In this document: positions 50,501-53,500 of the stretch, in pieces
How the letters are laid out: each line of letters begins with the position of its first letter
Numbering within the stretch: position 1 is the stretch's first letter
Assembly: GCF_029227855.1 (NCBI RefSeq)
Contig: NZ_CP074356.1
Origin: Escherichia coli
Lineage (GTDB): Bacteria; Pseudomonadota; Gammaproteobacteria; Enterobacterales; Enterobacteriaceae
Length of the DNA: 64,000 bases
Direction: 5' to 3' (one strand)
Program-made: the position numbers

Positions 50501-53500
50501 CACTAATTCGCCAGTTTGATCCGCTATCCGCTGGCTGCCCGCCGCTGGAGTTCATGCAGGTACGCGGCATGTTAAAAGGCTTTATCGACCTGGTATTCCG
50601 CCACGAAGGGCGTTATTACCTGCTCGACTATAAATCCAACTGGCTGGGTGAAGACAGTTCGGCTTACACCCAACAGGCTATGGCAGCGGCGATGCAGGCA
50701 CACCGCTATGATCTGCAATATCAGCTTTATACCCTGGCGCTGCACCGTTATCTGCGCCATCGCATTGCTGATTACGACTATGATCGTCACTTTGGCGGCG
50801 TTATCTATCTGTTCCTGCGTGGCGTTGATAAAGAACATCCGCAACAAGGGATTTACACAACCCGACCCAACGCCGGGTTGATTGACCTGATGGATGAGAT
50901 GTTTGCCGGTATGCCCCTGGAGGAGGCGTAATGAAATTGCAAAAGCAATTACTGGAAGCTGTGGAGCACAAACAGCTACGCCCGCTGGATGTGCAATTTG
51001 CCCTGACCGTGGCGGGAGATGAACATCCTGCCGTCACCCTCGCGGCAGCCCTGTTAAGCCACGACGCCGGAGAAGGGCATGTCTGTTTACCGCTCTCACG
51101 ACTGGAAAATAACGAGGCGTCGCATCCGCTGTTGGCGACCTGTGTCAGTGAAATCGGTGAGTTACAAAATTGGGAAGAATGCTTGCTGGCTTCACAAGCG
51201 GTCAGCCGGGGAGATGAACCAACGCCGATGATCCTCTGTGGCGATCGTCTTTATTTGAATCGCATGTGGTGTAACGAGCGCACAGTGGCACGCTTTTTCA
51301 ACGAAGTGAATCATGCCATTGAGGTTGATGAAGCTCTACTGGCGCAAACCCTGGACAAACTTTTTCCAGTAAGCGATGAAATTAACTGGCAAAAAGTTGC
51401 GGCGGCAGTGGCGCTGACGCGGCGGATCTCGGTGATTTCCGGCGGCCCTGGCACCGGTAAAACGACCACCGTAGCGAAGTTGCTGGCAGCGTTAATTCAA
51501 ATGGCCGACGGCGAACGCTGCCGTATCCGTTTGGCTGCACCAACGGGTAAAGCTGCCGCGCGCTTAACCGAATCTCTCGGCAAGGCTTTGCGACAGTTAC
51601 CGCTGACCGATGAACAAAAGAAACGCATTCCGGAAGATGCCAGTACTTTGCATCGATTGCTGGGTGCACAGCCGGGTAGCCAGCGTTTACGTCATCATGC
51701 CGGTAACCCGCTGCATCTTGATGTGCTGGTGGTAGATGAAGCGTCAATGATCGATCTGCCTATGATGTCGAGACTGATCGACGCCTTGCCCGATCATGCG
51801 CGAGTGATCTTTCTCGGCGATCGTGATCAACTGGCCTCGGTTGAGGCTGGGGCTGTGCTGGGCGATATTTGTGCTTATGCCAATGCCGGCTTTACCGCCG
51901 AGCGTGCCGGGCAGCTAAGCCGCCTGACGGGAACTCACGTTCCGGCAGGAACTGGCACAGAAGCGGCATCTTTGCGCGACAGTCTCTGCCTGCTGCAAAA
52001 AAGCTATCGTTTCGGCAGCGATTCTGGCATTGGTCAGTTAGCTGCGGCGATCAACCGTGGTGATAAAACGGCAGTGAAAACCGTTTTTCAGCAGGATTTT
52101 TCTGATATCGAAAAACGGCTTTTACAGAGCGGCGAAGATTATATTGCGATGCTTGAGGAAGCTCTTGCGGGTTATGGACGTTATCTGGATCTGCTGCAAG
52201 CGCGTGCCGAGCCGGATTTAATCATTCAGGCGTTCAATGAGTACCAACTTTTGTGCGCCCTGCGGGAAGGGCCATTTGGCGTGGCTGGACTGAATGAGCG
52301 AATTGAGCAGTTTATGCAACAGAAGCGCAAAATTCATCGTAATCCGCACTCTCGTTGGTACGAAGGCCGACCGGTGATGATTGCCCGTAATGACAGCGCG
52401 CTTGGGTTGTTTAATGGCGATATCGGTATCGCTCTGGATCGTGGGCAGGGGACGCGCGTCTGGTTTGCGATGCCGGACGGCAATATTAAGTCTGTGCAAC
52501 CGAGTCGCTTGCCAGAGCACGAAACTACGTGGGCGATGACGGTACATAAATCGCAGGGATCGGAGTTCGACCATGCGGCGTTGATTTTACCGAGCCAACG
52601 CACGCCGGTAGTAACACGAGAGCTGGTTTACACTGCGGTAACCCGCGCGCGTCGACGTTTGTCGCTGTATGCCGATGAGCGTATTTTGAGTGCGGCAATC
52701 GCCACGCGCACTGAGCGGCGCAGTGGTCTGGCGGCATTGTTTAGTTCGCGGGAATAAACGTAATTGCCGGATGCGACGCACGGGTGTTACGCATGTCGCA
52801 TCCGGCGATTTTCATCGCTTACCCCAAATCCGCCATCAACACTTTGGATTTACGCTGGTAGTTGTACAACTGCTTTTTGCTCTCGGGCAGTAAATCAATA
52901 TCCACTGGGGTAAATCCACGTTCCTGGAACCAGTGAATACTGCGCGTGGTCAGCACAAATAATTTGCTTAAGCCGCTCTGCTTCGCCTGAGCGGCAATGC
53001 GTTCCAGCAGAACCTCGCCCCGTGATGAACTGCGGTAATCCGGGTGAACTGCCACACAGGCCATTTCCCCAATCTTCTCTTCCGGGAACGGATAGAGCGC
53101 GGCGCAGGCAATAGTCGTGTTATCGCGCTGAATAATGGTGAATTTGTCGATTTCCATCTCCAGCTGCTCGCGAGAACGGCGCACCAGAATACCTTGCTGC
53201 TCCAGCGGGCGAATCAACTCCAGAATACCGCCAATATCGTTGATTGTTGCGCGACGAATCTGCTCGGCGCTTTCCATCACAATCTGCGTACCGATACCGT
53301 CGCGTGAGAACAACTCTTGCAACAGCGCGCCATCTTCCTGATAACTGATTAAATGACAGCGACGCACGCCGCTGCGGCAGGCTTTCACTGCGCCACGCAA
53401 AAAGCGCACCGTACCGGAGTTGTAATCACCTTTCTCTTCCTGGGCTTCTACCCGTGCTTGCGCTTCGTTAGGGAAAAGTTCGGAGACAATATCACCGTCG

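What the first reader, a model, noticed from the sequence alone, without database searches (positions are those of the whole stretch)
52766..52806. REP-like palindromes at convergent gene junctions (recD/argA and tcdA/csdE)
Both convergent junctions (52766-52806 and 58201-58234) carry GC-rich imperfect palindromes resembling REP elements. These can stabilise upstream mRNA, terminate transcription, and are targets for RayT-type transposases and insertion sites for IS200/IS605-family elements, relevant given the IS200 copy in this window.
Basis: partly seen in the sequence, partly recalled or inferred. Interest (0 to 1): 0.3.

Follow-up and report, generated by a model that had tools for sequence, protein, structure and literature searches.

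The report
Two REP-derived hairpins between convergent genes
Both palindromes are real and are ordinary, already catalogued E. coli repeat hairpins shared by the 3' ends of convergent genes: one is a canonical REP, and the other is a deletion remnant of a REP pair that is a mapped two-way terminator in K-12.

Summary
The window is E. coli chromosome (recB-recD / argA ... tcdA / csdE-csdA).

The tcdA/csdE element (58201-58235) is a canonical Y-type REP. It matches a median of at least 36 places per genome in 5,425 of 5,426 E. coli genomes. It keeps the AA/GC bulge, but its GTAG foot reads CCAG.

The recD/argA element (52762-52810) is not a standard REP and matches only its own locus. It carries the REP 'GC' arm on both sides, with no GATAAG arm, no bulge and no GTAG. 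Alleles in other E. coli and an outgroup Escherichia indicate that two internal deletions fused the outer arms of an ancestral REP pair (BIME).

Its K-12 orthologue is annotated REP207 and is listed as an experimentally mapped bidirectional terminator. For tcdA/csdE, K-12 Term-seq shows a csdE 3' end inside the REP and a Rho termination region about 310 nt further on.

The hairpin, 3'-end and terminator reading is supported. The RayT-target and IS200-target claims are not: the window's IS200 sits at the OmrA terminator, not in a REP. This is already known and of low interest.

The parts
52762..52810 (.). J1: recD/argA palindrome, the orthologue of K-12 REP207. It is a chimeric hairpin made of two REP 'GC' arms with a 17-nt spacer.
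   Evidence: The inverted repeat is, and folds on both strands. It has one place per genome in E. coli. Only the CGYCGCATCMGRC arm is found, on both strands. K-12 Table S16 entry 233 names it REP207.
52766..52777 (+). J1 left core arm, GCCGGATGCGAC. It is the outer arm of the recD-proximal REP.
52795..52806 (+). J1 right core arm, GTCGCATCCGGC. It is the outer arm of the argA-proximal REP, which is complete with GTAG in outgroup L006.
52778..52794 (.). J1 spacer/loop, GCACGGGTGTTACGCAT. This is where 20 nt (the REP GTCTTATCA..CCTA arm) and 17 nt (GTAGGTCGGATAAGGCG) are missing relative to other alleles.
   Evidence: alignments A1 and A2
52812..52813 (+). Inferred recD mRNA 3' end. It is projected from the K-12 bidirectional-terminator boundary 2950580 and falls at the end of the GAUUUU tract after the hairpin.
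   Evidence: Table S16 coordinates, mapped through the K-12 sequence. This is a projection and was not measured in this strain.
52761..52761 (-). Inferred argA mRNA 3' end, projected from K-12 2950631. It lies 4 nt from the recD stop codon.
   Evidence: a projection
58197..58238 (.). J2: tcdA/csdE palindrome including its extended stem.
58201..58235 (-). J2 canonical Y-type REP. The minus strand, 5'->3' from 58237, reads CCAG-GTCGGATAAGACGTTCGCGTCGCATCCGACC; the CCAG foot spans 58234-58237, so the 35-nt unit aligned to the Y consensus is 58203-58237. The AA/GC bulge, T11 and G32 are kept. GTAG is replaced by CCAG.
   Evidence: Both degenerate arms match with 0 mismatches. It has a median of at least 36 places per genome in 5,425 E. 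coli genomes. It is fixed at this locus in 5,425 of 5,426 genomes.
58222..58222 (-). Position equivalent to the K-12 Term-seq 3' end of csdE mRNA (2945008). It lies inside the 5' arm of the REP.
   Evidence: PMC7815308 supplementary file 1, mapped through
52755..52757 (+). recD stop codon
52819..52821 (-). argA stop codon
58192..58194 (+). tcdA stop codon
58245..58247 (-). csdE stop codon

Best explanation
Both elements are fossil REP-family DNA that now serves as a shared 3'-UTR hairpin for two convergent mRNAs.

J2 is a single Y-type REP. It was inserted, in the Escherichia/Citrobacter lineage, between tcdA and csdE; in most Enterobacteriaceae these two genes overlap at their 3' ends.

J1 is what remains of a tail-to-tail REP pair (BIME). 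Two internal deletions removed both inner (GATAAG/CTTATC) arms, the GTAG/CTAC feet and the linker. The two outer arms were left to pair perfectly.

For J1, each transcript from either side forms the hairpin. The hairpin pauses RNA polymerase, sets where converging polymerases meet and terminate, and then blocks 3'->5' exonucleases. recD and argA mRNAs therefore end just past the hairpin and do not enter each other's coding region.

For J2, termination at the hairpin is weaker. csdAE transcription reads through and is stopped by Rho about 310 nt further on, inside antisense tcdA. The REP mainly marks or protects a processed 3' end.

Shown: identity, structure, family membership, allele series and the K-12 3'-end data. 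Inferred: that the same 3' ends form in this strain, and the collision and exonuclease-barrier mechanisms.
For: Structure.

J2 family membership. Fixation at the locus.

J2 as a lineage-specific insertion:
- In 33 of 52 species, csdE and tcdA overlap by 4-16 nt, and in 6 they abut.
- REPs are present only in Escherichia, Citrobacter and a few other genera.

J1 origin:
- Alignment A2 shows the +20-nt allele, found in 731 genomes. It carries GGGTCTTATCATACCTAT.
- The outgroup Escherichia L006 is 90-93% identical at the DNA level. It carries a complete GTAGGTCGGATAAGGCGTCCACGCCGCATCCGAC.
- Salmonella arizonae and Pseudocitrobacter have BIMEs at the same junction.

J1 function:
- The K-12 orthologue is entry 233 of 306 bidirectional terminators, detected in log and stationary phase, with dG -27.5, and is named REP207.
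- Nearly every Enterobacteriaceae genus has a GC-rich hairpin at argA/recD, but of unrelated sequence. This argues for selection on a hairpin at that position rather than on the sequence.

J2 function: a Term-seq 3' end at 2945008 and a Rho termination region at 2945321.

Mechanistic background:
- Hairpin-programmed polymerase collisions (10.1101/2022.10.23.513370).
- Hairpins protecting Rho-terminated transcripts from PNPase and RNase II (PMC6061677).
- The dual terminator/stabiliser role of REP325, and about 60% of REPs lying between convergent genes (10.64898/2026.03.23.713779).
Against: - No RNA data exist for this strain. The window's J1 differs from K-12 at 3 positions and J2 at 2.
- The csdE 3' end maps inside the 5' arm of the REP, not at its 3' foot, which the simple exonuclease-barrier model does not predict.
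- J2 is absent from the bidirectional-terminator list.
- No 3' ends for recD, argA or tcdA appear in the Adams et al. Term-seq tables.
- The deletion order for J1 is a parsimony inference from few alleles. Independent REP turnover at the site is not excluded.
Confidence: 0.8

Rival explanations
1. The elements are neutral leftovers of selfish REP/BIME spread, tolerated at gene ends. Any RNA 3' ends there are incidental.
For: J2 is absent in most Enterobacteriaceae, where the two genes simply overlap. Terminal REPs show no general half-life effect. J1 alleles of quite different length coexist in E. coli.
Against: A hairpin occupies the argA/recD junction in almost every genus, despite unrelated sequences. 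The K-12 J1 is a reproducible bidirectional terminator. J2 is fixed in 5,425 of 5,426 E. coli genomes, and its departures from the Y consensus in the stem are compensatory (sequence comparison).
Confidence: 0.15
2. The elements are active substrates of the REP-associated transposase (RayT / TnpA_REP), that is, mobile or cleavable REP/REPIN units, and hot spots for IS200/IS605 insertion.
For: They derive from the REP family that TnpA_REP acts on. A rare E. coli allele at J1 (L086) holds an intact GTAG Y-REP flanked by duplicated sequence, which suggests past BIME dynamics at this site.
Against: GTAG is essential and no substitution is tolerated, and restoring a perfect stem abolishes activity (PMC8266576). 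J2 has CCAG. J1 has no GTAG and a perfect stem. REP-targeting IS belong to other families, and IS200 shows no REP association. The window's IS200 is at the OmrA terminator.
Confidence: 0.04
3. Their main role is at the DNA level. They would be binding sites for gyrase, IHF or Pol I that relieve or insulate the positive supercoiling built up between convergent transcription units.
For: REP/BIME are reported to bind gyrase, IHF and Pol I and to act as topological insulators (introductions of PMC3333891 and PMC1525189). Both sites lie between convergent genes, where positive supercoils accumulate.
Against: These are one single REP and one REP remnant, not the multi-REP BIMEs described for those activities (own knowledge). 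No IHF-site linker is visible. Nothing here tests binding. The recent REP325 study found no chromosome-level effect.
Confidence: 0.08
4. They act on translation. A REP hairpin within about 15 nt of a stop codon stalls the terminating ribosome and lowers protein output through tmRNA tagging.
For: All four stop codons lie 4-12 nt from the foot of a hairpin. The effect is recalled from Liang, Rudd and Deutscher 2015; the paper was not retrievable here.
Against: This was not tested here and rests on memory of one study. It could add to the RNA 3'-end role but would not replace it.
Confidence: 0.12

Closest known systems
E. coli Y-type REP / palindromic unit (35 nt, GTAGGCCGGATAAGGCGTTCACGCCGCATCCGGCA)
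   Same: J2 on the minus strand aligns over all 35 positions with 27 identities. It keeps T11, the A12A13/G26C27 bulge and G32. Both stem differences are compensatory (C6/G33 to T/A; G15/C24 to A/T). It is extragenic and belongs to a family with at least 36 blastn places per genome.
   Different: The GTAG foot reads CCAG here (CCGG in K-12). J1 shares only the 13-nt CGYCGCATCMGRC arm, which is present on both strands.
BIME (two inverted REPs with a linker)
   Same: The argA/recD junction holds a tail-to-tail REP pair in Salmonella arizonae, Pseudocitrobacter and, partly decayed, in outgroup Escherichia L006. J1 aligns collinearly with these.
   Different: In the window both inner arms, both GTAG/CTAC feet and the linker are gone. 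What remains is a single new hairpin, not two.
K-12 REP207 / overlapping bidirectional terminator no. 233 (2950580-2950631)
   Same: It is orthologous to J1: same genes, same position and 3 substitutions. It has a 17-bp stem and 7-nt loop, with transcripts from both sides ending just past it.
   Different: The window's version has a fully paired GCCGG/CCGGC foot, where K-12 has a C.A mismatch. It is slightly more stable: -31.2/-29.9 against -25.0/-28.4 kcal/mol on the recD/argA strands.
REP325 (yjdM-yjdN), a dual partial Rho-dependent terminator and mRNA stabiliser
   Same: It gives the same proposed logic for J2: a hairpin in the 3' UTR, read-through limited by Rho, and a protected upstream transcript.
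   Different: REP325 is a multi-REP element between tandem genes. J2 is a single REP between convergent genes.
REPIN / RAYT systems
   Same: Two inverted REP-derived arms form one long hairpin, as in J1.
   Different: J1 is single-copy and lacks the recognition features of the E. coli enzyme. It is a deletion product, not a replicating unit.

Membership tests
E. coli REP (y/z1/z2 palindromic unit) | Extragenic position | tested here: met
   Both elements lie wholly between stop codons.
E. coli REP (y/z1/z2 palindromic unit) | Imperfect palindrome of 29-37 nt with two arms (GATAAG-side and GCATC-side) | tested here: inconclusive
   J2 meets it: both arms match with 0 mismatches. J1 does not: only the GCATC-side arm is present, on both strands, with a 17-nt spacer.
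E. coli REP (y/z1/z2 palindromic unit) | Conserved GTAG tetranucleotide at the 5' foot | tested here: not met
   J2 has CCAG. J1 has no GTAG or CTAC on either side. The feature is defined in PMC8266576.
E. coli REP (y/z1/z2 palindromic unit) | Conserved AA/GC mismatch (bulge) in the stem | tested here: inconclusive
   J2 meets it (GATAAGAC opposite GTCGCATC). J1 does not, because its GATGCGAC/GTCGCATC core is perfectly paired.
E. coli REP (y/z1/z2 palindromic unit) | High copy number dispersed in the genome | tested here: inconclusive
J1 has exactly 1 place per genome.
E. coli REP (y/z1/z2 palindromic unit) | Listed among the annotated REP elements of K-12 | tested here: inconclusive
   The J1 orthologue is named REP207 in Table S16 of 10.64898/2026.03.23.713779. 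No name was found for J2. The K-12 RefSeq copy available here carries no REP features at all.
BIME | Two or more REPs in alternating orientation separated by a linker | tested here: not met
   The window's J1 has only two outer arms. The BIME state is seen only in relatives.
Overlapping bidirectional terminator of convergent genes | A hairpin-encoding region shared by both transcripts, with mapped 3' ends on both sides | not testable with these tools
   The K-12 orthologue of J1 meets it in published data. J2 is absent from that list. No RNA data exist for this strain.
Canonical intrinsic terminator | GC-rich hairpin followed by a 7-8 nt U-rich tract | tested here: inconclusive
   After J1 the recD strand reads GAUUUUCAU, and the scan flags only a sub-hairpin at 52794-52807. 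The argA strand reads AAUUACGU. J2 is followed by GUUCUGUG and GAUUGUUU. All of these tracts are weak.
TnpA_REP (RayT) substrate | GTAG foot plus bulged stem on the REP strand | tested here: not met
   J2 lacks GTAG, and J1 lacks both features.
IS200/IS605 target site | An IS200-family element inserted in or next to the element, or a documented REP preference of the family | tested here: not met
   The IS200 at 26579-27289 abuts the OmrA terminator. The REP-targeting families are IS3, IS110, IS4, IS256 and IS5, and IS200 scored 1/25.

The most novel reading that the evidence does not exclude
The short J1 allele is an exaptation rather than simple decay. Deleting the inner halves of a BIME produced a hairpin that folds sharply on both strands (z about -4.5 on each). 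The +20 allele folds weakly on the argA strand (z -1.2), and the outgroup form is diffuse. The three alleles segregating in E. coli (about 84% short, 13.5% +20 nt, under 1% duplicated) would then set different levels of recD/argA read-through and expression.
Probability: 0.25. Interest if true: 0.3.

Novelty: already known. Interest (0 to 1): 0.1.

Why it matters
It matters little beyond annotation. REPs between convergent E. coli genes are common: 207 of 704 convergent pairs hold one. The recD/argA element is already catalogued as REP207 and as a bidirectional terminator.

There are three useful by-products:
- The two elements should not be lumped together. One is a true REP and the other a single-copy chimera of two REP arms.
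- Neither is a plausible RayT or IS200 target, so they say nothing about the IS200 in the window.
- The allele series at recD/argA, and the REP insertion between the otherwise overlapping csdE/tcdA, are clear small examples of repeat DNA being reshaped into gene-end hairpins.

Tried and rejected
- The K-12 RefSeq annotation was checked for REP features. The copy carries none, even at a control locus where I recall a K-12 REP annotation (5565-5669), so their absence is uninformative.
- Rfam at gathering thresholds gave no hit at either junction.
- The simple terminator scan flagged only a trivial 5-bp sub-hairpin at J1 and nothing at J2, and total hits equalled the shuffle expectation.
- The supplements of Dar & Sorek 2018 are not held.
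- Liang/Rudd/Deutscher 2015 is not held, and a text search for it failed.
- A fuzzy-regex REP scan timed out and was replaced by an ungapped two-arm scan.
- The outgroup-type junction (L006) was searched in 5,426 E. coli genomes and found in none. L006 is therefore a separate Escherichia lineage, not an E. coli allele.
- The REP-motif hit at 27892 was rejected as a chance match inside the aas coding sequence.
- The idea that the IS200 sits in a REP was rejected by alignment with the empty K-12 site.
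Full report
**Where we are.** The window is E. coli chromosome. A 1-kb stretch around the first junction is 100% identical to several complete genomes and is present in 5,425 of 5,426. The window runs in reverse orientation relative to K-12 2.94-2.95 Mb.

Gene order on the + strand is:
- recB 47380-50931
- recD 50931-52757
- argA (minus strand, stop at 52819-52821)
- amiC
- three tRNA-Met genes
- mltA
- tcdA 57388-58194
- csdE (minus strand, stop at 58245-58247)
- csdA

**Observation.** Both palindromes are exactly where stated.

J1 has arms at 52762-52777 and 52795-52810 (16 nt, 94% complementary) around a 17-nt spacer. Its perfect 12-bp core is GCCGGATGCGAC / GTCGCATCCGGC. 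J2 has arms at 58197-58215 and 58220-58238 (19 nt, 84% complementary) around 4 nt.

As RNA, each folds into one dominant hairpin on either strand:
- J1: -31.2 and -29.9 kcal/mol (z -4.5 on both strands)
- J2: -27.7 and -24.5 kcal/mol (z -5.8 and -5.3)

None of 200 shuffles did as well in any case. The REP arm motif occurs 4 times in the window against 0.21 expected. The fourth hit (27892) lies inside the aas coding sequence and is a chance match.

**The two elements are not the same kind of thing.**

J2 is therefore a member of a dispersed repeat family. The same search with J1 finds exactly one place per genome, its own locus.

An ungapped two-arm scan of the whole window finds a single full REP, J2 on the minus strand, with no mismatch to either degenerate arm. 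J1 has only the CGYCGCATCMGRC arm, once on each strand, and no GATAAG arm.

Read on the minus strand, J2 is CCAG-GTCGGATAAGACGTTCGCGTCGCATCCGACC. Against the 35-nt Y consensus it has 27 identities. The numbering of that consensus (T11, A12A13, G26C27, G32) agrees with PMC8266576. Both stem differences are compensatory, and the bulge and contact bases are kept. The GTAG foot, however, reads CCAG.

**Origin of J1.** Other E. coli carry longer alleles.
- 731 genomes (13.5%, including ST131) have 20 extra nt in the spacer. These supply GGGTCTTATCATACCTAT, the missing inner arm and foot of a REP whose outer arm is the left arm of J1.
- About 32 genomes have a 234-nt junction. In it the element and about 35 nt of the argA 3' end are duplicated around an intact GTAG Y-REP.
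- An outgroup Escherichia (L006) is 90-93% identical at the DNA level, and its junction type is absent from all 5,426 E. coli genomes. It has, next to argA, a complete GTAGGTCGGATAAGGCGTCCACGCCGCATCCGAC. The outer arm of that REP is the right arm of J1.
- Salmonella arizonae and Pseudocitrobacter have tail-to-tail REP pairs at the same junction.

In alignment A2 all of these are collinear. The most parsimonious reading is an ancestral BIME from which a 17-nt and then a 20-nt internal deletion removed both inner arms, both feet and the linker. The two outer arms were left, and being the same REP arm in opposite orientation, they pair perfectly. This explains why J1 looks REP-like, is single-copy, and lacks both the bulge and GTAG. 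The order of events is inferred, not shown.

**Origin of J2.** Among 52 Enterobacteriaceae species with both genes on the fetched locus, csdE and tcdA overlap by 4-16 nt at their 3' ends in 33 and abut in 6. A REP-type hairpin separates them only in Escherichia, Citrobacter, Pseudescherichia, Superficieibacter and Cedecea. J2 is thus a lineage-specific insertion. In E. coli it is now fixed (5,425 of 5,426 genomes).

**Function: what published K-12 data say.**

Table S16 of Harris et al. [quoted passage not shown] Entry 233 is 2950580-2950631, with hairpin dG -27.5. It was detected in log and stationary phase, affects argA:recB:recD, and is named REP207. From the column format I take the source list to be the SEnd-seq study of Ju, Li and Liu 2019; that attribution is my inference.

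Projected onto the window, recD mRNA ends at about 52812, at the end of GAUUUU after the hairpin. argA mRNA ends at about 52761. The two mRNAs therefore overlap by just the hairpin and stop short of each other's coding sequence.

A GC-rich hairpin of unrelated sequence sits at this junction in almost every genus examined. That argues that the position needs a hairpin, whatever its source.

The mechanism proposed for such sites is that the nascent hairpin pauses polymerase. Converging polymerases then collide at a defined place, and trailing polymerases complete the release (10.1101/2022.10.23.513370).

For J2, Adams et al. 2021 (PMC7815308) list a Term-seq 3' end at 2945008 (+), classed as primary for csdE; the coordinate occurs three times in supplementary file 1, which covers three growth conditions, and two entries were read. 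They also list a Rho termination region at 2945321 (+), antisense within tcdA. Transcription from csdAE therefore passes the REP and is stopped by Rho about 310 nt later. This fits the model of hairpins protecting trimmed Rho-dependent transcripts (PMC6061677).

Two things do not fit neatly. The mapped end (window 58222) lies inside the 5' arm of the REP rather than at its 3' foot. J2 is also not in the bidirectional-terminator list. No 3' ends for recD, argA or tcdA appear in the Adams tables.

E. coli TnpA_REP tolerates no substitution in GTAG and loses activity when the bulge is repaired (PMC8266576). J2 fails the first condition and J1 fails both, so neither is a credible RayT substrate.

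REP-targeting insertion sequences belong to the IS3, IS110, IS4, IS256 and IS5 families, and IS200 showed a 1/25 association in Salmonella LT2 (PMC1525189). The IS200 of this window (26579-27289) is inserted exactly after the eight-T run of the OmrA terminator. K-12 shows the empty site. It is 26 kb from J1 and not in a REP.

**Context and verdict.** About 60% of E. coli REP elements lie between convergent genes, and 207 of 704 convergent pairs hold one. Two such junctions in 64 kb is unremarkable.

The REP, hairpin and 3'-end reading is supported, strongly for J1 and partly for J2. The RayT and IS200 parts are not supported. Both elements are already known, and interest is low.

The only mildly new points are the chimeric origin of REP207, the allele series at that site, and the insertion of J2 between ancestrally overlapping genes. 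The short J1 allele folds sharply on both strands. The +20 allele is weak on the argA strand (-21.2 kcal/mol, z -1.2), and the outgroup form is diffuse. The deletion may therefore have improved a two-way hairpin, but that is untested.

Noticed in passing
window 26579-27289: A 711-bp IS200 copy (Rfam STnc490 hit at 26589-26712) is inserted exactly after the 8-T run of the OmrA intrinsic terminator, ahead of aas. K-12 has the uninterrupted site. The target is a terminator hairpin with its T-run, not a REP.
   Followed up: partly
L086 469-702 (E. coli 23CRST004, recD/argA junction): A rare allele (about 32 of 5,426 genomes) has a 234-nt junction. The REP remnant plus about 35 nt of the argA 3' end is duplicated around an intact GTAG-bearing Y-REP. 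It looks like local BIME expansion or duplication.
   Followed up: partly
L003 254-334 and 731 E. coli genomes: A +20-nt allele of the recD/argA palindrome, found for example in ST131, keeps a near-complete REP. On the argA strand it folds much less well than the short allele (-21.2 kcal/mol, z -1.2).
   Followed up: partly
loci L011-L084, csdE/tcdA junction: In 33 of 52 Enterobacteriaceae species the convergent csdE and tcdA genes overlap by 4-16 nt at their 3' ends, typically as TCAGGCCTGA with the two stop codons on opposite strands. Six more abut.
   Followed up: yes
L023 1779-3001 (Salmonella enterica subsp. arizonae): 1,223 nt of AT-rich sequence lie between csdE and tcdA instead of a REP or an overlap. 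The content was not examined.
   Followed up: no
window 58222 (minus strand); K-12 2945008: The published Term-seq 3' end of csdE mRNA falls inside the 5' arm of the REP (..GGAUAAGA^CG..) and not after the hairpin. Possible causes are RNase III cutting of the sense/antisense overlap, an endonuclease, or a mapping effect.
   Followed up: no
window 57347-57369: The mltA intrinsic terminator (AGGGTGAGGGATAACCTCGCCCT followed by TTTTT) ends about 13 nt before the tcdA start codon. K-12 Term-seq lists a very strong 'orphan' 3' end there (2945855).
   Followed up: no
loci L013-L038, argA/recD junction: Many Enterobacter, Kosakonia and Phytobacter species carry GCCCTCACC...GGTGAGGGC-type hairpins at the argA/recD junction. 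Kluyvera carries long arrays of GGGAGAGGG/GGGTGAGGG repeats. These appear to be genus-specific repeat families filling the same slot.
   Followed up: no
E. coli genome search: One of the 5,425 matches to the recD/argA region is on a record labelled as a plasmid. It may be a mis-assigned replicon or a large chromosomal segment on a plasmid.
   Followed up: no
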